Origin: Sphaerodactylus townsendi
Lineage: Eukaryota
NCBI RefSeq assembly: GCF_021028975.2
Contig: NC_059437.1
Coordinates: forward strand, 31,744,001-31,808,000
Length of the DNA: 64,000 nt
Reading direction: 5' to 3'
Part shown: one piece after another, positions 1-23,200 of the stretch
Numbering within the stretch: position 1 is the first letter of the stretch
Layout: each line of letters starts with the position of its first letter
Notes under the pieces: generated by a model
Told to the model about the DNA's origin: nothing
Databases searched by the model: none
Seen by the model: the letters and a program-made list of their open reading frames with translations, nothing else
Program-made: the position numbers and the translations under genes

Positions 1-380
1 GTGCACGCACGTTCCGGGGCGGCGCTATGTATTGCGGCGCCGCGGCGCTGGGGGGAGAAGAGAGTGGCGGTTCCGCTAAGGCGGTTCTGGGTGTGAGAAA
101 GACCGTCATCGTCCCCGCTACGAGCGCCCGCTATGTCTGAGGCGGCGGTGGCCGATACGCGGCGCCTCAACTCGAAGCCGCAGGATTTGACGGACGCCTA
201 CGGGCCGCCTAGCAACTTCCTAGAGATCGATATCTTCAATCCGCAGACCGTGGGCGTCGGTCGGGCCCGCTACACCAGCTATGAGCTCCGCATGAGAGTG
301 CGTGAGGAGAACGAGGGGGGAGCGCAGGGGGCGGGGCTACAGCGCGTGAGGGGTGTGGCCTGACTTTCCCTGGCTGGAGG
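1..380 (+). promoter_or_regulatory. CpG island / promoter and first exon of SNX12
   Basis: Very GC- and CpG-rich stretch around the SNX12 ATG at 133. Confidence 0.75.
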
Positions 381-3300
381 AAGTGGGGTGGGTGGAGGGC
401 GCCCCTGGATGTTCTTCCTCCTTGGGAAAAGCACCGTGCGGTTAGAAAGTTAGGTCAAGAGGGGGGCTGTTTGCAGAACTGGCTTTCTGCATTCGGTTAC
501 TTTTTATTTTTAAAATGCAGTTCCAAATTGTTGTTGTTTTGCCTTGCCTGGCTGAAGTGGTGGAGTCCATTCTATCTTGCCATATTCCTGCTTTTCTTGC
601 ATGTGTGAACATTTCTTAGATTTCCTGTTCGTGTCACACAAAGATGCTCTACGTGGTGGCGCCTATGGCACTCCAGTTGTTCATGGACTACAACTCCCAT
701 CAGCCCCTGCCAGCATGTAGTCCATGAACATCTGGAGTTCCATAGGTTCGCCACCACAGCAGGGCAGGAGTATGAGAGTTTTTACTCTGTTGGAAAGAGA
801 GGATTTATGAGATGGAGTAGTGTGGTTTCTCTCCATATTTCTTGCCTCTCACTATGTTTATGAATTCATAAGGAGCACTGCTGGGGGGCATGCACGTATG
901 ATGTACAAAGACTGTTCTTGTAGGGTTTAGTTACAGCTGAGGATGGGACTTAAGACGTGTTAAACCAGACTCTTCTGGGTTTTTTAAGAGTCTTATTCTG
1001 AAATTTTTGCACCAACAACTTATTTTGAATGGTCACAGAGTAGCTTCTAAGTCTCCTTGGTATTCTGTCTTGCTATGAGAAGCCTGGAATTAGAGCTTCT
1101 CTTGAGCACAGTCAGAGCAATTCTTGTAGCCTTCTTCTATAAATGAACAACTGTAAAATGGGCTAGTTGCGTGGTAGTTCCGCCACCTTTTGTGCTCAGG
1201 GCCCGAGACTGGTCTTGTTCCTGCTACTGTTAGGCTAGCACAGGGGTAGGGAACCTGCGGCTCTCCAGATGTTCAGGAACTACAATTCCCATCAGCCCCT
1301 ACCAGCATGGCCAATTGGCCATGCTGACAGAGGCTGATGGGAATTGTAGTTCCTGAACATCTGGAGAGCCGCAGGTTCCCTACCCCTGGGCTAGCAGAAT
1401 GTCTTATGACTTCTTTCTACACAAAGCATCTCAGGCCTTGTCCCAAAGATTGCAGTTAAGTCTGCAACAGATGTGACAGCTGTTTGTTTTTAGAAGTACA
1501 AATCTATTCCCTAAAATGTTCAAGGCTGAGGTACCAAGAACTTGTGAGTCAGCTGATAGACTTGAAATTTGTGCAGAATACACAATTTGTCGTGGAAATG
1601 AAAGGTCCATACTCTCTCAGCGTAGTAGTAATTTGTTTCTGGTAGCCACGGAGACTGCTCTATAGAGGCAAAGTATGTTCATTCCATACCTACACCCCAT
1701 TAAGAGGACTTTATAGAGGATATATAGCAATTGGTCCTTGGAGAGCATTTGTGGCAATTACCCTGTTTCAACCCAAGATGATGATGCAGCCTAGTGCAGT
1801 TTTGAGAAATGCACTTCTGCCTTTCTGTTGCAACAGTACTTTTACAAACTTGTTACTCATAGGGTGTGTATGTGGTTTACTTACACAATTTGAAAATGGC
1901 ATAATAAACTTAAGGCAATCAGCAATAGATAGGACACAACCAAGATCACGGTAGCCCCAAGTCTCAAAATAATGCATCAGAAACTCCAAAAACTTATCCA
2001 CTCCAAAATAATCCTCTGTAGTGGAGGTGATTGGAGGAGAATCTTGACTAGATATCTAAAGGAAAGGAGTGCGTGGGCAAGCTAGGCTTCTTTCTCAGTT
2101 ATTAAAGTAGCTGCCCAGGGCATTATGGTGTGACCTGAGCAGAAGATATAAGATGATGGGTATGTTCACATGCATGGAGGAAGTACCATTGTTACTCTGG
2201 CCCAAGCCTTTTAGGTATTAACTCATCCCCTATTACTCTGAATCAGGTCCAGAAAAAGTCTGCAAACCAGTGAAGATGATTAATTTCAGAATTACATCCC
2301 CGACAGTGGGTTCATGTTAATAATTTTGCTGCTGTATTCTGCACCAACACAATTTCTGAATTCCTTCAAAGGCAGTACGGAGACTATGCAACATTAATCT
2401 AATCTGTGTATCACAAGGCCTGTATTAGTGTTGTCATATCTGGCATGAAGAAGCTTTTTCTGCTGGTTGCCAGAACTAAAAGTAAGCTGATAATAATATC
2501 TGTGGATCCTAGATACTCATAACTTAGCCTTGCTCTAATTGCTTGCATAACATATAAACAGAAAGAACTGAAAATTAATTTTTAATATGTCTCTGTGTTT
2601 TGCTCTTGGTAATTGCCTTCTCTGTGGTCTTCTGTGCCCTTCTGTGCCAAGGAAAGCAGTACATGTGCCACTGGGCTGTAGCGCTGCATGTATTGTAGAG
2701 TGAACGGAATGATTTGTAAAGCAGCTGCTGAGTGTTATGTGTCTTCTTGCAGACAAATCTACCCATTTTCAAACTGAAAGAGTCTTGTGTGAGACGACGA
2801 TATAGTGACTTTGAGTGGCTGAAAAATGAGCTGGAGCGTGACAGTAAGGTGAGTGCAAGGGAGCATCTACTGGATGTAGTCCTTGACCTTAACTACAGAA
2901 TAGATACATATGTGTCACCTTCCATCTGCCACAGAAATACTCTCTTTTGTCAGTTAATCTATAGTTTCGATGGTTTAAGATTCTGTTCTCTCTGCTTCCA
3001 GATTGTAGTGCCTCCACTTCCTGGCAAAGCCTTGAAACGCCAGCTTCCCTTCCGAGGAGATGAGGGCATCTTTGAGGAGTCTTTCATAGAAGAAAGAAGA
3101 CAGGGCTTAGAACAGTTCATAAACAAGTAAGATGCACACTGGTGTTCACTTTTTAGGGAAGTGGAACACTGGGAGAAAGGAAATAAGTTGAGTCCAAGTC
3201 TCACAGCACAGCCAACATGTGCATCACCGCTATTTTGCTAGTGGAAGTGGCCATTGCCAAGTGAACTATAAATATTTATCTTGTACACAAAAGGTTATCT

Positions 3301-7529: not shown

Positions 7530-7900
7530 TTACTTCCGCCCGTTGCTGCTCATCAAGCACCGGCAGCCAACCTCATCCAATCGGAAAAGCCCAGGGCTTC
7601 TTCCCACCATAGATAAAAAGGAAGCACCAGGTTTTTAGTGCCTAGAGAAGAAGGAAGGGAAACCATAGCACGATCAGGCTGGACCTCCGTCCCACCCCTT
7701 GCTGGTCGACAGGTGACCAGCCTTTCTACGATGCTCATTGGAGGAAAGATGGAAGAGGCGCGTTCGAGCGATCTAATAGGCGCAAACTGAGCCAATGGGG
7801 AGCAGGCGCGGAATGCGAAAAAGCGACTGTTGCCTCCAGGGTGGGCCCGGGGTCTTTGAGGCGCCTGAGGGACTAGCGGCCTTGCTTTCGTGGCCGTTAT
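7530..7900 (+). promoter_or_regulatory. TATA-less CpG promoter with three CCAAT boxes and E2F-like sites
   Basis: CCAAT 7577, ATTGG 7737, CCAAT 7792; GGCGCAAA 7779; GGCGCGGAA 7805; directly upstream of ATG 7899. Confidence 0.65.
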
Positions 7901-10900
7901 GAGGCGACGGAGTGGGCTGCAGAGCGCCGGCTCTTTCCTGGAGCCGCTTTCCCAGTTGTGCTTAAGCCCCATGTCCCAGACAGAGCCCGGCCAGGAGGCG
8001 CCCAGCTTCCTCTACCGCAGCTTCTTCGCCCAGGAGTGCGACGCGGTCGTGTCCCAGCTGAGCAGGGCTGCGAATGAGAGGCGGCCGCGTTGCGTCTCGA
8101 CCGTTCAGGATGAGACGCTGACCCCGCTGGAGTCTCCCAGCTCCTTCTTGGAGAGTCCCGACGGCGGTTCTTCACCTCGGCCTGTCCCCGAGCCCGCCTC
8201 TGCCGGCTTTGGCCCGCCTGATCGTTCCGCGGCAGGGCCGTTCAGTGAGCAGAGCCCGAGCCTGGCAGGGGCTTCTCCTGGCGCAGGAGCACAGCCAATC
8301 GCCACGTCCCCTGGCTTCGACCTGGTAGGGGCTTCGTCCAGGCCTGAACGGGAGAAGGACTCGCCACCGCCTAGCGTGGCCAACATCACGTATGACTGCA
8401 TGAGCTCTGGTGGCTCTGCCGACGCCACGTACCTCTGCACCGGGTCCACTTCGCCGGGGAAGAAAGAGATGGCCGTAGACGCAGCGCCCGCCCATCCTGG
8501 CCTGGAGGTTTGTGGGCAGCTGCTGCCCATTGTCACGTCCACCCCCTTGATGGTGCCTCCCCGTTCAAAAGATGCACCCCCGACAACAGAAGGCCCCCTG
8601 AATAGGGAAGGCTCCGCGCCAGACTCCTGGCAAAAGTCTCCGGAAGATCCGCTGCAGGAGGCAACGTTCAGGGTCAGTTTTACATCCAGCCATGAGAGCC
8701 TTCCTGCAGCTGCCAGAAATGGGGCTAACCAGGTGCCTCGTGTTTCTGGTAAGATTCCCCTTGCCAAGAGAAGTCTGGCTCTTAGAGCTCGAGGGGCTCA
8801 AGGCATAGGAGGTCTTCCTAGAGGCACTGGTGTAATGAAGAAAATCCTGCAGTCAGCTGGTGGATACAACTTTCGGAACTTCCTTGGGCCACCAGAGAAA
8901 TCAGGATCAGCCATACAGAGCCAGCCAGTGGTTCAGGTGAGCAGTAGCCAGGAGGCACTGTGGTATTACCTACCTATTCTGTTTAGTGCATGGGCACGCA
9001 CAAAAAAAATTCAAAAGACCAAGAGAGTTATTATTGTTCCTGCTTCCCTCTGAAAATCGTCCTTTTTGTAAGACATGTATTGGTTTAGCTGGGAGAGGGT
9101 CAAATTCCCACTCACTCATGAACCTCATTGAGTGACCTTTGGCCAGTCATCCTCATCCTGACATGTCAGACAGGATTCTTAGGGTACAATGGAAAGTGTA
9201 GGACCAAGCAGATTTCCATGGGTACCCAGGAGAAAGAGCAGGATAAACATGCTGATGGGCTAATGCGTGGAAAGTAGCCTGTGCCACCTAAGCAGCTTCC
9301 CTGGCGTGCTCTCACTGAACACACAAAGCTGTCTAATGGATTTTTTATTCCAATATATGTGATTAAGTCTTCTCATAAAAGTTTTGTATATAGGAATTAA
9401 TCTGAAGATTAGAACGTCTGTAGCTGGATCTGTGGCTAATTGTCCACAAATGGGAAGTTTCAAGGTCTCTTTCTAGCTAATTTTTAAATACTTATGGTAG
9501 TGGTCATGGTAGAGAGGGATTTTCCCCGCCAGTGGAAGGGAGATTTAGATTACAAGATATATATATATACTGAAAATCTGATTGATTTACTACATGTATT
9601 AGGGGACTACTGATTGCTAGAAGCTCTGAGTCGTTGTGAGAGCTGCTTGATATAATCTGTGATAAAACTAAATAAGTTGTGTTCTCCAGAGAAACTTTTC
9701 CTGGACAGGTGTCTTTTATCTGAGCATTGAGGAAGTAGTGGTGGTCTCTTTTTTGTAGCCGAGGAGTTCTCTGAGAGTGCTGAAGCCCTCTTCCGAGAGC
9801 CACTGTTTCACAAACCTTATTGATAAACACAGGATCATCACCTTTACTAATTAGCCATGATTTACATATAAAGTGCACATAAAGAGGCGGATGGCCTCTT
9901 ATTTGATCTGTGTAAACTTTAGGGTGCTCATGCAGCTCTATATCAAATAAGAAGTCAGCTTCAGTCTTGCGTTCAGAACCTGTGTTCAGACTTTATGGCT
10001 GCCAAGAATTATTTGCATGGTTTGATCTGGTGGCTTTTGCACTTAACTACTTTCAATCACTAGCTGCCAGAACTAAACTTTAGAATAGGTTGTTAGTTAT
10101 ATTTGTACAGAAAGGTTTGTCTGCATTGCCAAATATTTAACATTTATCCAGGATACAACTCAAAACCAAGTTGGTGATTTAAGTAATTTCTCTTTGATGG
10201 AAGCCTTTAATCTTCTCTGAATTCATCATATGCTGTTGGCATTGCAGGATGGGAGATACAGAAATATTCTGTTTCCTCTGTGGTCACGGGAAATACAGAT
10301 CATTCCTCATTGTGTTTCTGTTTCCTGTCTCTGACACTGAGCAGAATATATCTAATTTCGTGATTTACAAATGATAATGAAAGGCCCTTGGAAGCCTATG
10401 TTAATGAGCTGCTATTTGGACAATGGGACATTTCTGCACTTTCTTTGGTATTGAGTTGATTGTGTAATTGTTAAGGGTGTCGGATCCCTGTTCTTGCCAT
10501 GGAAGCTTGCTGGGTGACCAGGGGTCAATCACAGCCTAATGGTCTTACAGTGTTGTTGGGAGGATAAAATGGAGGAGAGCATATTATTGTTGGCTGCTTT
10601 GGGTTCTTACTGGGGAGAAAAGTAGAGTATAAATGAATTAAATTTTTTAAATTGTTCTGTAATTCTATTTTCTGACGCATTATATATCATATATTATATA
10701 TCATATATTCTGATGCATTTTATATAATATATTATGGTCTGTGATTAAATATTTAAATGTTCTTAGAAGTGTTAAATCATTCTAATGTTGGTGTTTGGAA
10801 GTATAGAGAGGGTGATGGATTCACATCAGACTTCTTTTAAGGCCCATCTAATACTTGGGTCTTATATCATGTAGAAACTCCTGCCTGATGAGATAACAAA

Positions 10901-13900
10901 GGCAGATTTGACAGAACTGCCCTGCAATAAGAAGCCCCCGATTTCCATCCAGCCTCCCTCCAAACTTGCTGGTAGATCTGGAGTTCAAGGCTCCCTAGCA
11001 TGTCTGGGTCTGAAGCCCCACAGTTTGTCAAGAGATACTTCAGCAACAAGGCTTCCAGGTCCTGCAGGTGAGCTGGGTTGGCTTCTGGATGAATGGTTGT
11101 GGGTAACAGGGAGGCTGGTCTGTCTGACAAGAATGAACCAAAGTGGGTTGTTCTGACCGTGGAATGTCTGGTTATTTACTATTTTTCTTCAGAGGGTTAC
11201 AAATAGGGAACTGTTTTCTTCTCATCAGCTGGCTTGTGCATCTGTACCAATGGTCCAGAAACTAAATATTAACCAGTTGTCAAATATTTTGTGTGTGTGT
11301 AGTCAAGGAACAGGGCATGTTTAGAAAGGGTGCAGACCACATTAAGAAACCCATAAGCTAGAAAGTGGGTGGAGTGAGTGGATCTTCAGAAGACCTTGCA
11401 GCCTACTGGGGCTGGTAGTGGTGTCATCACTTCATTGTGACCTGCAACATGCTAGTACAGAACTTGTCAAATCCCAGGAGCCAAAGTGCCTAGCATTTTA
11501 GCAGTAACTTTATTGCCATGTAGCTTGGAGGTTCTTAGTAGAAATACAAATCTTATTTATAATTTCAGATTAGAATGTGTTGTAGTATGACCTAAAAGGT
11601 CAAAGTTGTTTGTTTGTATATTAACTTTACACCATTCAGTGGCGATAAAACATATCCATTCTTAACTATTGCTTTCAAACTAAACCTTTTAAAACAACAA
11701 TAAAATTGGAGAGATCAGGTTAGACAGGTTAGCTTTTCATTGCCACGATGATAACCTGGATTACTCCATATTTTTTTAATATGCTACAATACTTTTCTCA
11801 GAGCTTTAATAAAGCTATAAGAATCTGCAAAGAGCGTAGGGTTAGGTTCTGTAGCAATAATTAGATGATACAATTATTAAAATACAATGCCATGTCGAAA
11901 AATTAGCGTGGTTCCTAAATTTGGAGGACTTGCTCTTAAAGCGGAAAACATTTGTCAAGACTTATGCTAATATTAAAGTGGCAGTTGCGTTTACTGGCAA
12001 AATTAGAGGGCCAGTGTGGTGTAATGGTTAGAGTGTTGAGCTAGATTAGAATATGGGAGACCCAGATTCAAATCTCCACTCTGTCATAGAAGAGTGCTGG
12101 GTGACTATGAGCCACTCAAATGATTTGAGCTGCTTTGTATCTTCTTCTAATGTAAGTAGATCTTTCCTTGGAAGAGGACTCCTTAGAGTGGGGAAAGGCA
12201 TAAAACTTTGCTCTGTGGTGTGATAGGATACATGCCACCATGTGGGGGTCCAGAACACTATGCTTTGTCGAGAGGTTAAATGCATCTCCAAGGTTTTGTT
12301 AACATTTTTATTACTGTGACATTCAGGCAACAAGACAACAACTAAGAGCATAGCTGCGATTCAAAAACGCCCTCCGTGCGGACAAAAACCAATTCGACAA
12401 AACTACTAAGCATCCCCCCCCTGAATCCAGCTTTCATTTTCCTCAAGTTGCCGCATCCCATTTGCTTCTGTGCAAAAGTAAGTTGGAAAAGATATTTTAT
12501 CTCAGTAGTAAATGCAGTGAGTTCATTGGGGGGGGGGGGGGGGGCGGCAAGAAGGGTGAGAACTCTGCCAGGTTAGAGATGCTAGGAATACCTAGTGAAA
12601 CTGTTTCTGGTTCAGGTTGCTGTATACACTGAAATGCAGGAGCTTCTCAAGCCCAGTACTATCCAACTATAGCAGTGATGGCGAACCTTTTCAAGACCGA
12701 GTGCCCAAACTGCAACTCAAAACCCGCTTATTTATCACAAAGTTCCGACACGGCAATTTAACCTGAATACTGAGGTTTTCGTTTAGAAAAAACGGTTGGC
12801 TCCGACGTGTGCGTTACTCAGGAGCAAGCTTGGTGGTAGTAGATGGCTTTGCTTTGAAACAGCTGTGCAACTCTTTCAATGGGTGAATCACGACCCTAGG
12901 AGGGTTTACTCAGAAGCAAGCCCCATTTCCAGCAACCGAACTTACTCCCAGGTAAAGGATTGTGCTTTAGTTTAACAGCGCTTAACAGGGTTACCTACAC
13001 TATTTCCTCAAAACTAGGTCTTAGGTTTAATGCTAATAATCGAACCCAACGACCCAGGCCAGTCGGGGGGGCACTCTGTTTGCGCGTGCCCACAGAGAGG
13101 GTTCTGAGTGCCACCTCTGGCACCCGTGCCATAGGTTCGCCATCACTGAACTATAGCCACAGTGGAGGCACTGTCATCATCTTTTGGGCTATAGCAATTT
13201 CATGGTCATCTATTATGGAATGGAATACATGCTCCTTCAGAGAGTTGTGAGAGTGGCTTCAATCAAGATATTGTGTATCAGGTGCAGAGGTGATAGTTTG
13301 CCAGTAGAGGGCAACAGCAGACCAAAGACGCTTCTCTCCCTTTCCACAAGCAGTCTTCTAAGGTAGGAAAGTTTTAGGTATCCCTCAGGGGAGAGGGAGG
13401 AACATCTTCACCCTTCCCAAAAATAGTAGGTGAGTATATCTTAGGTTAGGAGTTCCACAGAGCAAAACTCTGAGACTCCAGTTTGTAAGGCAACAAAGAT
13501 GGGAATCACTTCTCTTTCAACCAGGTCAGAAAGAGAAGTCCACAAGTAGTGATCTGATGGCTGTTGGACAAACCCGAAATGCTGCTCTGAAGAAGGACTT
13601 CACTGCATCTTGCCCAAAGGTAGAACTAGCAGAGTGAATGGCTTTAAATCACCCAAGAAAAAGAGGGTCGGTCTCTCTCTTAAATGTTTAGCATCTCATT
13701 CATGTTTCATAAAGAAGCATGTGTTCTCACAGCAAATATATATATATATATATATGTGAGAAGGTTCTGTCAGAGTCAGACCACTGGTATGCATAACCCA
13801 GTATTACTTTCTGTGGCTGCCCACAGCTCTCCAGGTAAACTTGAGGCTGAGAAGGATCTTTCCCAACCTTGCTGCCTGGGATTTTGCAACTGCAAACACT

Positions 13901-15465
13901 GGCATTGAACCTGGAACCTTGTAGTTGCAAAATAGTCCTTGGTTCTCTGTTGTTAGGAATATAGCCATGTATTTGCTGTGATGGCTAACATGCCATCTGT
14001 TTTGCAATTTCAGTGCCAATGGCTGGCTGAAGAGAATCAGCGGTTGAAGAGCATGTTAGAAACATGTCAAAAGACTATTGCCTCCCTGAAACAAAAGGTA
14101 ACCTCCTCGGGAGCCCTGCATTTACAGTTCTATATGCAGATTGTGTAATGCAGTGCAGTCTATTGCAGGCAGCTGCTAGCCTCAGCAGAATTGCTTTCAG
14201 TATTCACACCTCTAGTAGAATGGAGCTTATCCACAGTGCCGGTAAATGGATTGTGGTAGTCTAGTCACTTGACCTTGTTATCCAAATTGGTACAGTGTGC
14301 AAAGACCCAGTCACTGAAGCAGTTATTTTGGAACCAAGCAGTCTACCATATACGGGAGTGCCACTCTGATACACCATTTCAATTTGGGAAGGAAAAACAA
14401 AACACAGAGAATCTCAAAAGAAATAACCTGTATTCCCCTAACCAGATGAAAGACTAGAAAGAGTAAATACAAGGAAATGCAAAAACATTGAACAAAACCT
14501 TATATATTCTCCAGAGAACTTTGTGCTCTGCAAATAACAACTTGATGATGGTCCCTGGCCCCAAAACTATTTGGCTGTCCTCAAGCAGGGCCAGAGCTTT
14601 TTTGGCTCTGACCCCTGTCTGGTAGATCACTCTGTCAAATGAGACCCGGGTCCTGCAGGATCTATCACAGTTCTACAGAGCCTGTAAGATGGATCTGTTC
14701 CACCAGACCTTTGGTGGAGGGCAGCAGTGGTGTCTATCTGGCTGGCCTCCCTGCTCTTCCTTCTCCTTTCTTTGCTGTTTGTTTTGTTGTCTTTTTTCTT
14801 TCTTTTTTATTGTTCTATTAGCATAGACTGTTGCTAATTCCATCCTTTTAACAAGATGTACTTAGGGTGCCATGAGCTATGTATCTGTTTTAAATCTTTA
14901 TGGAATTCTTTGTTGGAAACTGAGCTTGGATGGAGAAATGCTGCTTAGAAATCAAATTATAAATAAAATAGAATTGCAGTGCGGTAATGCATTGCTGCCC
15001 TTGGTTGTTGTCTGAGTGCATGAGGATAGTCATCTGTGAGGATAGTGGGACCATTTAGGTGAAGTGTTAGTTATTGGAATGATGGACCTGAAAAATGCTT
15101 AGCAGCTTTGTTTACATTCCACTGGGTTGGAGATTCAGTTACTGGAGTAGGCCCTAAAGTAAAAAGAATTGTATAGCCTTAAGGTATTAGGCATCAAATG
15201 AGACAATTACTCCACTGGTTTGAGGAAACTTCTGGACACTTGAAGTCAGAGGTCTGTAATCAGTTTGCTACTGTTGGGGGAGTATATTTGCCGTCGGTTC
15301 CAAATATTAGTAATGAACAAATGTTGATAGAATTTCAATTGTCATAATCATGATTGTTCTGTATATCATGTAACATGTACCCATTTTAATCAGTTCTTTT
15401 TCCTGTTTTCTTAGCAAGCTGCAGTAGAAAATGAAAACTGTCCCCCTGAGACAGAAGCTAAATGA
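7899..15465 (+). CDS. Uncharacterised ~486-aa Ser/Pro-rich protein with C-terminal coiled coil; predicted exons 7899-8936, 10875-11067, 13525-13619, 14014-14097, 15415-15465
   Basis: 1038-nt first exon ending CAG|gtgagc; four downstream exons with AG/GT ends and matching phases (0,1,0,0) giving ...KLLPDEITKADLTELPCNKKPP...TRLPGPA/GQKEKSTSSDLM...ASCPK/CQWLAEENQRLKSMLETCQKTIASLKQK/QAAVENENCPPETEAK*; AATAAA at 15588 and 15611. Extra exons are possible. Confidence 0.75.
12673..13148. mobile_element. Non-autonomous hAT DNA transposon (476 bp) with 8-bp TSD
   Basis: TIR cagtgatggcgaacc / ggttcgccatcactg; TSD aactatag at 12665-12672 and 13149-13156. Confidence 0.9.
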
Positions 15466-15587: not shown

Positions 15588-15616
15588 AATAAAATGAACT
15601 TTTGCTGTAAAATAAA
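15588..15616 (+). terminator. Tandem AATAAA polyadenylation signals of the uncharacterised gene
   Basis: AATAAA at 15588 and 15611, ~120-150 nt after TGA 15465; GT-rich tract downstream. Confidence 0.6.
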
Positions 15617-20287: not shown

Positions 20288-23200
20288 TCAGATAGTTGTA
20301 TCTGGACTCGGGTCAGAGCTGGCAGAATTCAGAGGCTTGTTTGTCGTTAACTGTGATTGCCGAGTGGTCTGTGCTTCTACACTGTGCCGGATCCCATAAC
20401 CAAAGTAGATGGCAAAGCCTGCATGAGTTACAAAAAAAGCTTTTATTTCATGTGTTAGTAGCTGCTAAATTGCTTTATCTCAAACATTCAGTGTGGTATA
20501 GTGGTTAGTGTTCTAGACTAGGACTGGGGAGACCTTAATTCAAATCCCCATTTAGTCATGACACTTGCTAGGTGCTGTCAGCTCAGTCACTGGCTCTGCC
20601 TGAGCTATCCCACAGGGCTCGAAGTGATGACAAAAGGCATAGGGGGGGATTTCTGGGAACTCCTCAGAGGAAGAGTTTCCTCTCTGGATCACCTTTGGAT
20701 TGTTTGGATTCCTACTTGGCCAAATGCCTCCTAAAACTCTAAATCTCTGTTTGCAGATTCAAGGTGTAGTTGGCTCATCAGATAACTAAACACTTAAATG
20801 CCACCCCAGATAATGTCTCCACACAGAAAAATCAGTACCTCCTTGCTGTCCTGTTGAAAGACGATAGGCCATTATTGAGATCAGTCCTGCATAACAAAGT
20901 TTCAGACACTATCATGCTCCTTACCTATGGCCATCCAGACACCAAAGCGGGCCCATGTGCCTGCATCCAGCTGCATCATGAGATAGATATTCACAAAGAT
21001 ACTGAAAAGAGGGAGCAACGGCAGGGCAGGCACCTGGAAACGAAGAGAAAGCACCCAAGACAAGTGTATATAAACATTTCTCAAGATTATGGAAAATTGA
21101 AGTTCTTTCACAAGATACACAGTTCAATATAAAACTGGACTAAATTCCAGTGAATTGTCGGAGTCTTCCCAGACAACAGAGAAAAAGTAATCGAGGGGGG
21201 GGGGGGAGGGTTAGATGCAGTGTGAAGACTGCCTCATTGAATTCCTATAGCATTGATATCCAATATGCAATGGATATTTCCCTTTTTTAACTGCAAGGGA
21301 AAATAGAATCTTTCATTTTCATTAGATTTTGTGGACATGGTTTTCAAAATATCTTTCTCCCTTATTAGTTCTGAAATACTACTATTCAGGAGAAGATAAA
21401 CCTGTTACTTTATAGGAGATTACTCTGCTCATTAGAGTTTCAGCAGTGGTTACATGTATGGGGAGGGGGAGATGGCTAAAAAAAGATCTTTACCAAACTG
21501 AACAGGAATTGGAGACAGCACACTCTGAAGTCACAGCTGTTGGCCAATAGATGCTCAAGAACCATCACCCACTATTCCACACGTTCGCATTTCCAAATGG
21601 CTCAGAAGTGGCTTCAGAATGCTTGAAAAACACGTTTCCAGATAACAGAGGTACTAAGTAAGGGGAATGTAAACTGGACTGTCCAAGCCAACTTAGCTTT
21701 CAATCCATTTTTTCTGTAATGATTCAGAAAAGCTGCCCTGATGTAGAAAAGGACACTTTTTTGCAAAGAGCATGGAAGTTGCTAAGGCAAAACAGAAGTC
21801 TTTTCATGCCTATGGGAGGAATCAGACTACAAAAGCATTGTGGGAAGAGGGACCGGAGGGTTGGAGAGACAGGAGTTATTCCTTCTGAAAGGCAGACAGT
21901 GGGGTTGCTATTTGAATGGGATGATCCAGCCATTCAGAAGCAACAGCACAAGTGTTACGATTCCTTCAGCAAACGCTGCCCACAAAAGATACCAAGTGCA
22001 GCATGCCAGATCTATGCCAACACCCAGCTCAGTCACCGACATTCCCAGCAGGATGAGCAGTTTTCTGGCCAGGACTCTTACCTTGAAAGTGAGGCGCTTC
22101 TTGCTTTCTGGCTGCCTCCAGATGATAATTGCAAAAATCACAGAAATACCCAGGAGAAGTGCACATGCCACAGTCCAACCAATGCTGCCATCCATGAGTG
22201 CTTCCCGCTTCTGTGCCAGGAACCCGCACAGGACAGCGATCACGACAGCTGCAAAATAAACCTCCACTTTATATCAGAGGGAGCGTGATCTTGATCTAGC
22301 AGAACCTCTCTAACGTTTCCCAGGAGTCGTCAAATAGAAAATGTTCAGGGCCAGAACTGAAAAATGGCTTGTAGCATTTCAGATCTGCTACTGAGCAAGA
22401 TCTATTCTCCTCCTGGTCTCCAGAATTGCTGTTTGGGCTCTCCCAAGGCAGAATGCAGTTGTCTTAAAGTGCCCAGTTGACCAACTGATGTTGGACCTCC
22501 CCTTCCCCAACTTTGCTGGAACTTTTAAAGCACTTCTAGTCCCAGTGCCACTGTTGGCAGAACTTCCAATACAAATCTAAATTGAACACCTCAGTTCCAC
22601 CCCCCAGAACTTACAAACAATTGTGGTGCAGATGTAAACAGTGCGTCCCGAAATGTTGGTTGGGAACTCCCCAGAAGGGCAGAAAAGGCTCCCCCAGGTG
22701 AACTTCTCTTTGAGTCTAGTCTGATTGCTGTTGACTGATGAATTCATTATCACCTTCTCTTCTTCACTTCCATTCACCTCCAACATCTCCACGTCCTTGG
22801 AAGAGCTGCCGATCTCAGGCTGGTATCTAACAACAAAAGCATTAAGACAATCCAGCATCAGCGCTTATGCAAAAAGAGTCTCCACCACTCAGAGATCAAG
22901 CAACCCCCCAGTCCCCCAAAACACCCAGCTGGGACATCACAGTGTTTGGATGGACTTTGAGTACCCAACATCAGTAATCATTCCTAAGACACCCACCTGA
23001 GGATGAGAACGCAAACAGCTACCAGTGAGTATGCCAACAAGGTGCCAATTGACATGAGGTCTACCAGGGCCTTCAGCTCAAACAGGAATGCCATCAAGGC
23101 TGCAAGAAAATACATGTTACATGAGATTCATCCTAACCCACGGTTGGTTGGGGGAAGAGCAAGGGAACAGACTTCTTGGCTACCTATCCTTACCAGATAT

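What the first reader, a model, noticed from the sequence alone, without database searches (positions are those of the whole stretch)
7899..15465. Unnamed multi-exon gene between SNX12 and SLC7A3 with a cell-cycle-type architecture
Seen: five phase-compatible exons, polyA signals and a CpG promoter, although the ORF track shows only fragments. The protein has an acidic Ser/Pro-rich N-terminal half with many SP/TP sites, a basic Ser/Pro-rich middle with SxIP-like motifs (GKIP, TRLP), a short coiled coil (CQWLAEENQRLKSMLETCQKTIASLKQK) and a KEN-like ENENCPP tail. I recall no human protein-coding gene at this position. Inference: a disordered, possibly microtubule/EB-associated, cell-cycle-regulated protein that may have been lost in mammals.
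Basis: partly seen in the sequence, partly recalled or inferred. Interest (0 to 1): 0.7.

Follow-up and report, generated by a model that had tools for sequence, protein, structure and literature searches.

The report
Gecko gene in MTUS family's seat
This is a real but unstudied six-exon gecko gene, misread in the genome assembly, whose floppy protein likely docks the cell-division kinase Plk1 and may descend from a fourth copy of the MTUS microtubule genes, because it sits where such a copy would be expected.

Summary
The gene is real. RefSeq lists it as uncharacterized LOC125442905 (Sphaerodactylus townsendi), cut short at 437 aa. It has six exons, not five. A 39-codon cassette exon at 12327-12477 is garbled in the assembly: short-read contigs carry 86 bases where the window has 120, which gives 117 nt in frame and a protein of about 525 aa. 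Every named homolog is a gecko protein, 48-68% identical pairwise. The protein is predicted disordered apart from a C-terminal CxxC coil. TRLP is partly kept, GKIP is not, and there is no true KEN box. The gene lies tail-to-tail with SLC7A3. The three other CAT1-3-type transporter genes in this genome each have an MTUS-family gene in that position, and early intron phases match MTUS1/2. It lacks the long MTUS coil and shows no significant similarity, so I do not file it as an MTUS. Rival: CXorf49. No earlier scan note matched.

The parts
7577..8500 (+). Promoter region and CpG island, with CCAAT boxes at 7577, 7737-7741 (minus) and 7792; begins about 100 nt after the last upstream AATAAA (7468), which likely ends SNX12
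7899..8936 (+). Coding exon 1, 346 codons, ends in phase 0; disordered Ser/Pro-rich region
8382..8432 (+). Two Plk-type sites, [ND]xT[YF], at residues 162 and 175
   Evidence: both present in 6 of 6 exon-1 sequences; consensus from PMC8832123
8526..8546 (+). Polo-box docking consensus PIVTSTP, residues 210-216
   Evidence: full seven-position match in 5 of 6 exon-1 sequences, core STP in 6 of 6; consensus from PMC2920843
10875..11067 (+). Coding exon 2, 193 nt, phase 0 to 1; SxIP-type TRLP at 11046-11057
12327..12477 (+).
12348..12467 (.). Likely assembly error: 120 bases where short-read contigs hold 86; it causes the false stop at 12407-12409 that ends the RefSeq model
   Evidence: tables 5, 7, 8
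13525..13619 (+). Coding exon 4, 95 nt, phase 1 to 0; holds the first Cys of the CxxC motif
14014..14097 (+). Coding exon 5, 84 nt, phase 0 to 0; second Cys and the predicted coil
15415..15465 (+). Coding exon 6 with stop; NENCPP at 15430-15447, a possible degenerate KEN box
15588..15616 (+). Two AATAAA signals
133..297 (+). First coding exon of the upstream neighbour SNX12 (context)
   Evidence: best PDB match sorting nexin-12, E 6e-28
20923..21039 (-).

Best explanation
This is an intact six-exon gene for a protein of about 525 aa, predicted to be disordered except for a short C-terminal coil, that likely works as a phosphorylation-switched docking scaffold for the mitotic kinase Plk1 near microtubules and likely descends from the fourth copy of the MTUS family. 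Shown: exons, reading frame, conservation in geckos, the motifs, gene order and intron phases. Inferred steps: (1) Cdk1 phosphorylates Thr215 in S-T-P; (2) the Plk1 polo-box domain binds there; (3) Plk1 then phosphorylates Thr164 and Thr177; (4) the basic middle part and TRLP bring the protein to microtubules or EB1-marked plus ends, and the basic cassette exon 3 tunes this; (5) the CxxC coil makes it a dimer, perhaps with zinc; (6) NENCPP may serve as a weak APC/C degron. My odds: real coding gene 0.97; six exons with an assembly error 0.93; Plk1 docking 0.6; microtubule or EB link 0.45; MTUS descent 0.45.
For: Gene: exon 1 equals RefSeq XP_048370643.1; named homologs in five other gecko species; single copy. 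Exon 3: two runs skip 120 bases with 86 between, and a third runs on for 85 unlike letters; 151-120+86 = 117 nt; the Eublepharis isoforms differ by exactly 39 aa there. Plk1: full polo-box consensus in 5 of 6 exon-1 sequences, expected 0.002 or less per shuffled protein; TSTP is the longest invariant run, among 57 invariant positions of 346; two Plk sites in 6 of 6, shuffle P 0.0015-0.016 each (the orthologs are not independent). Microtubule leads: Atlas neighbours of the 437-aa form are ssp2, MTUS2-like, AMER2, PSRC1, CKAP2 and NCKAP5, all under 0.9. Origin: 3 of 3 other CAT1-3-type transporter genes in G000 have an MTUS-family gene facing them tail to tail, at about 20 kb (C4), 52 kb (C10) and 24 kb (C3). 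This gene faces SLC7A3 at about 5 kb. Both MTUS genes open with a long coding exon ending in phase 0, then a 0-to-1 exon (181 and 241 nt; here 193) and a 1-to-1 exon (186 and 207 nt; here 117). MTUS1 and MTUS2 exon 2 are themselves unrecognisable to each other (z -1.3), so a lack of similarity in this part is expected.
Against: No significant similarity to MTUS1 or MTUS2. Seven gecko profiles ranked no MTUS exon above noise among 28,533 six-frame fragments. Nineteen MTUS exon frames found no in-frame match under E 0.2 among 175 frames from this gene to SLC7A3. The best of 21 exon pairs was coil against coil at P 0.01, z 2.9, against z 8.9 for MTUS1 with MTUS2. The long C-terminal coil that defines the family is missing, the coil is split by an intron that MTUS genes lack, and MTUS genes have no CxxC there. 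The long exons of MTUS1 and MTUS2 do not carry the full polo-box consensus. For the full-length Heteronotia protein the Atlas puts CXorf49 first. A salmon gene table lists snx12 and slc7a3 with no MTUS-like gene in a 150-kb stretch. Paroedura lacks the flanks of the docking site and TRLP. The motif patterns were chosen after I had seen the alignment. All mechanism steps rest on motifs alone.
Confidence: 0.4

Rival explanations
1. It is the reptile counterpart of CXorf49 (DUF4641), a fast-evolving, testis-expressed X-linked gene, and likely works in germ cells, not in general mitosis. This does not exclude MTUS descent.
For: The top three Atlas clusters for the full-length Heteronotia protein are DUF4641, scores 0.89-0.90 with 175-183 of 256 features shared and lengths 409-578 aa. 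By the tool's own note, 170 or more shared features are seen in 9 of 10 true family hits and 1-2 of 10 chance hits. CXorf49 is an uncharacterized testis-expressed X family (passages). Recalled, from no call: human CXorf49 lies in Xq13.1 under 1 Mb from SNX12 and ends in a CxxC coil.
Against: Pfam PF15483 does not hit any of the 10 proteins scanned nor this locus in the genome. No DUF4641 protein appears. The truncated form, which lacks the coil, does not retrieve it, so the signal may come from the coil alone. Shuffled proteins reach 0.9 in 4-10 of 100 cases.
Confidence: 0.25
2. It is unrelated to both: an old gene of its own or a gene that arose in geckos on the CpG island behind SNX12, whose position facing SLC7A3 is chance after the fourth MTUS copy was lost. 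It may still be a Plk1 partner.
For: All named homologs are gecko proteins in four searches, one of which read 1.84 billion representatives without a word filter and gave 7 hits. No Pfam or PDB match. No paralog in the genome.
Against: It leaves three coincidences with the MTUS loci unexplained: position, orientation and the first three intron phases. At 48-68% identity among geckos, more distant orthologs would fall near or below detection. One loss in the sister clade of geckos would explain the lack of other lizard hits (phylogeny recalled).
Confidence: 0.3
3. In this species the gene is a decaying or truncated copy, with a real frameshift in exon 3 as the RefSeq model implies.
For: The window has a stop at 12407-12409 and RefSeq ends the protein there.
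Against: 0 of 4 runs carry the window's letters there; two carry 86 bases, which restores the frame exactly. The downstream exons are intact and about 80% identical to Heteronotia in the coil.
Confidence: 0.04

Closest known systems
MTUS1/ATIP3 and MTUS2/TIP150 (microtubule-associated scaffolds; PMC11621681 and PMC10318397, passages)
   Same: Tail-to-tail position with a CAT-type SLC7A gene; long first coding exon in phase 0 followed by 0-to-1 and 1-to-1 exons; disordered Ser/Pro-rich body; SxIP-type words in the early small exons (SRLP in MTUS2); a coil after them.
   Different: About 525 aa with one coil of about 35 residues, against a long multi-exon coil; no significant sequence similarity; CxxC before the coil; an intron inside the coil; a full polo-box consensus that the MTUS long exons lack.
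CCDC69 (MTUS paralog that shares only the C-terminal regions, PMC11621681 passages)
   Same: A shortened gene at an MTUS-type locus: a gene on C3 that matches the last two MTUS exons faces a CAT-type gene; I take it for CCDC69 from recall.
   Different: It keeps the late coils, and no long first exon or first-coil match was seen in 200 kb; this gene would keep the opposite part.
CXorf49 / DUF4641 (PF15483)
   Same: Length, low complexity and language-model features; X-homologous region and a terminal CxxC coil (recalled).
   Different: No Pfam or sequence match; different immediate neighbours (recalled for human; in G000 the NHS-family gene on C13 lies 18 Mb away and OGT 0.5 Mb away).
Disordered Plk1-docking proteins such as BRCA2 Thr207 (PMC8301801, passages), and SxIP plus-end proteins such as PSRC1 and Drosophila ssp2 (Atlas leads; their functions recalled)
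   Same: Short conserved motifs in a fast-evolving disordered chain: an S-T-P docking site beside Plk sites.
   Different: No shared domain or homology; likeness in working principle only.

Membership tests
MTUS family | Long C-terminal coiled-coil region homologous among MTUS1, MTUS2 and CCDC69 | tested here: not met
   the same exons did find the C3 paralog
MTUS family | Lies tail to tail with a CAT1-3-type SLC7A gene | tested here: met
   PMC7584565 passages for mtus2 beside slc7a1
MTUS family | Long first coding exon in phase 0, then 0-to-1 and 1-to-1 exons | tested here: met
   exons between these and the first coil were not all found in MTUS1 and MTUS2
MTUS family | First coil encoded in one 1-to-0 exon and similar in sequence | tested here: inconclusive
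   two exons here; P 0.01 and 0.025 uncorrected among 21 pairs, in different registers
MTUS family | Binds microtubules or EB1 and regulates KIF2A/KIF2C | not testable with these tools
   needs experiments
CXorf49 / DUF4641 | Match to Pfam PF15483 | tested here: not met
   (HMMER filters drop most matches above E 0.1)
CXorf49 / DUF4641 | Language-model features of the family | tested here: inconclusive
   first hit 0.90, 183 features; not retrieved
CXorf49 / DUF4641 | Shared intron positions and a syntenic bridge through other amniotes | not testable with these tools
   no other vertebrate genome and no CXorf49 sequence was in hand
Plk1 polo-box ligands | [PF]-[hydrophobic/P]-[hydrophobic]-[TQHM]-S-[TS]-P consensus, conserved, in a disordered region | tested here: met
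Plk1 polo-box ligands | Phosphorylation of the site and binding to the polo-box domain | not testable with these tools
   needs experiments
SxIP plus-end proteins | Conserved [ST]x[IL]P in a basic, disordered context | tested here: inconclusive
   TRLP in 4 of 6; counts not above shuffles except in one partial protein (P 0.04)
KEN-box substrates of APC/C | K-E-N core | tested here: not met
   0 of 7. NENCPP has Pro at +2 and +3 as in the consensus; an NEN binds the KEN site in one crystal, which the authors ascribe to high concentration (PMC3690534 passages)

The most novel reading that the evidence does not exclude
This gene is the missing fourth copy of the MTUS family from the early vertebrate genome doublings. 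It kept only the disordered front part and the first coil, the mirror image of CCDC69, and became a Plk1-docking protein. Mammalian CXorf49 is its displaced, unrecognised descendant, which would give that orphan testis gene an origin and a testable link to Plk1 and microtubules.
Probability: 0.12. Interest if true: 0.7.

Novelty: new variant of a known kind. Interest (0 to 1): 0.42.

Why it matters
At the least it repairs a broken public gene model and turns an uncharacterized gecko protein into a candidate Plk1 partner with one residue, Thr215, to test. If the MTUS descent holds, it completes a four-copy gene set and shows two copies that kept opposite halves of one scaffold. It would also be a clear case of an apparent orphan gene whose origin shows in gene order and intron phase after the sequence signal is gone. 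If the CXorf49 link also holds, a human testis gene of unknown function gains a history. As it stands this is a narrow finding: one lineage, motif-level function, origin by position.

Tried and rejected
No RNA holder listed; junction support was therefore not seen directly. The prediction of a coil dimer with zinc was not available, so dimer formation and zinc binding stay untested. No fold search was run, because the model has mean pLDDT 39.8. Pfam gave only sub-threshold coil matches such as bZIP_1, SIKE and GIT_CC, and PDB only designed coils at E 0.4 or worse; I rejected these as generic. An eyeballed 9-of-26 match to the first MTUS1 coil did not survive profile searches. One MTUS2 exon hit a wrong-frame fragment of exon 1 at E 0.0045; rejected as low-complexity noise. 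A G2/M promoter was tested and not supported. D-box, PP2A-B56 and full CDK sites are not conserved or absent. The search for TEX11 found nothing and rang in no control, so the gene order beyond SLC7A3 is incomplete. No CxxC-coil motif in a single frame was found in 200 kb around OGT; an intron could hide one. UBL3 was found only on C4. Look-ups of earlier scan notes gave nothing relevant. Paper searches for the neighbourhood (5, 3, 2 and 5 papers listed) showed no title or abstract start on this gene; I did not search the LOC number. One search returned nothing. No supplements were read; annotation or expression tables there could hold this gene.
Full report
1. The observation. A CpG island covers the start and two AATAAA signals follow the stop. 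Exon 1 is identical to RefSeq XP_048370643.1, uncharacterized LOC125442905 of Sphaerodactylus townsendi. The upstream gene matches sorting nexin-12 best. The downstream, convergent gene is a CAT-type transporter. A FOXO gene lies upstream and a DLG-type gene about 120 kb downstream (the names FOXO4, SLC7A3 and DLG3 are recalled from this neighbourhood).

2. A sixth exon hidden by an assembly error. The RefSeq model is exon 1, exon 2 and a third exon from 12327, ending at a stop after 437 aa. The second public model (496 aa) uses the last 30 nt of the same exon. I laid four public runs on 12180-12520. None carries the window's bases 12348-12467. Two have a joint that replaces these 120 bases with 86, a third runs on for 85 unlike letters, and the fourth contig ends 21 letters past the break. 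With 86 bases the exon is 117 nt and symmetric in phase 1. Read by hand in frame, the printed 30-letter loose end of the third run gives QKRPWDK at the same positions as in the two Gekko proteins. The two Eublepharis isoforms differ by exactly these 39 residues. That the patch comes from a noisy long read beside the G run at 12528 is my inference. That RefSeq isoforms rest on RNA data is general knowledge, not checked here.

3. Range. Named homologs come from Heteronotia, Eublepharis, two Gekko species and Paroedura; three more hits are unnamed fragments. Pairwise identity among five proteins is 48-68%. A single-protein search of 1.84 billion representatives gave 7 hits, and a profile search of 7,993 word-matched candidates gave 5, all named ones geckos. 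The word-based search is weak: exon 1 alone missed the 59%-identical orthologs. The gene is single copy in G000. Loss in mammals could not be tested.

4. Anatomy. AlphaFold2 on seven sequences gives a mean pLDDT of 39.8, with 461 of 516 residues under 50 and one confident helix at the C-terminal coil. A CxxC motif just before the coil is kept in 6 of 6 proteins that reach it. In exon 1, 57 of 346 positions are invariant in six sequences, and the longest invariant run is TSTP. With its flanks it matches all seven positions of the polo-box consensus quoted in PMC2920843 (passages) in 5 of 6 sequences; shuffled proteins give 0.002 matches or fewer each. Two sites fitting the Plk1 consensus of PMC8832123 (passages), narrowed to an aromatic +1, lie 38 and 51 residues upstream in the window's protein and are present in 6 of 6. 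The same paper states that Cdk1 primes most such docking sites. TRLP is kept in 4 of 6 but such words are common by chance. NENCPP has the prolines of the KEN consensus, and an NEN can occupy the KEN site in a crystal (PMC3690534, passages); this is a weak lead. I chose the patterns after seeing the alignment, and orthologs are not independent.

5. How it likely works. Cdk1 would prime Thr215, Plk1 would dock and phosphorylate Thr164 and Thr177, and the basic middle part with TRLP would place the protein on microtubules or at EB1-marked ends (SxIP-EB1 binding as described in PMC10318397, passages). The coil would dimerise it. Each of these steps is inferred from motifs; none was tested by a binding prediction or an experiment. 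The Atlas neighbours of the truncated form are mostly proteins I recall as microtubule-associated, all below 0.9 and so leads only.

6. Origin by position. mtus2 neighbours slc7a1 from fish to mammals (PMC7584565, passages). In G000 I found six CAT-domain loci. Two have long-exon layouts and sequence that I read as SLC7A4 and SLC7A14 (names recalled). The other three group with SLC7A3 in the C-terminal exon: the C3 exon shares 24 and 22 of 37 residues with the C10 and C4 exons and 19 with the window's, against 15 with each of the two outliers. All three face an MTUS-family gene tail to tail: MTUS2 on C4, MTUS1 on C10 and a gene on C3 that I take for CCDC69 (names from recalled motifs; what lies between MTUS1 and its transporter was not annotated). 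CCDC69 is a known paralog that shares only the C-terminal regions (PMC11621681, passages). The gene studied here faces SLC7A3 in the same way, and its first three intron phases, 0, 1, 1, equal those of MTUS1 and MTUS2. Against this, direct similarity is not significant, the family's long coil is missing, and a salmon table shows no MTUS-like gene near snx12 and slc7a3 (PMC7147387, one passage). A control limits the weight of the negative for the front part: exon 2 of MTUS1 and MTUS2 show no similarity to each other, exon 3 shows z 3.8 and the first coil z 8.9. The coil here reaches z 2.9 at best. I therefore hold MTUS descent at about 0.45 and do not file the gene as a family member.

7. The CXorf49 rival. 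For the full-length Heteronotia protein the Atlas ranks three DUF4641 clusters first, at 0.89-0.90. CXorf49 is an uncharacterized testis-expressed X-linked family (bioRxiv 10.1101/2020.12.29.424738, passages). Its place in Xq13.1 and its terminal CxxC coil are recalled. Pfam PF15483 does not match. No CXorf49 sequence was in hand, so the question stays open at about 0.25; it is compatible with MTUS descent.

8. Literature seen. Passages only, by term search, of PMC7584565, PMC7147387, PMC2920843, PMC3690534, PMC5706962, PMC8301801, PMC11621681, PMC10318397, PMC8832123, PMC7468164 and two bioRxiv preprints (10.1101/2020.12.29.424738, 10.1101/2020.05.22.110767). All other papers were seen as search listings. 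No whole text and no supplement was read.

9. Verdict. A real, conserved, uncharacterised gecko gene with a repairable public model, a strong Plk1-docking signature and a suggestive but unproven origin. Interest 0.42; new variant of a known kind.

Noticed in passing
G000:C3:80,484,000-80,510,700 (L122-L125): A fourth CAT1-3-type transporter gene faces a CCDC69-like gene tail to tail, with a retroelement-like stretch between them. I recall no such transporter gene beside human CCDC69.
   Followed up: partly
G000:C13:32,221,700-32,231,900 (L066-L067): About 10 kb of a C-rich tandem run giving poly-Pro and poly-Gly frames of about 3,400 codons; probably an assembly artefact.
   Followed up: no
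window 2732-3127: One SNX12 intron is open in frame between its two exons, so a retained intron would not stop translation.
   Followed up: no
window 1-21039 and neighbours on C13: SNX12 and SLC7A3 are on opposite strands here; as I recall they are on the same strand in human, which would put an inversion breakpoint where this gene lies.
   Followed up: partly
G000:C13:35,795,290-35,799,194 (L135): A second CAT-family gene on C13, SLC7A4-like by recall; the TAG inside its Pfam match lies at the exon's start and looks like the splice acceptor, not a break.
   Followed up: partly
G000:C13:32,289,714-32,349,243 (L072-L078): Beyond OGT lie two long single-frame membrane-protein ORFs and an ORF that looks like an MmgE/PrpD-type enzyme by recall; no CXCR3-like long ORF was seen in these 200 kb.
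   Followed up: no
window 12528-12546: A long G run lies about 50 nt behind exon 3 and may explain poor short-read polishing of the exon.
   Followed up: no
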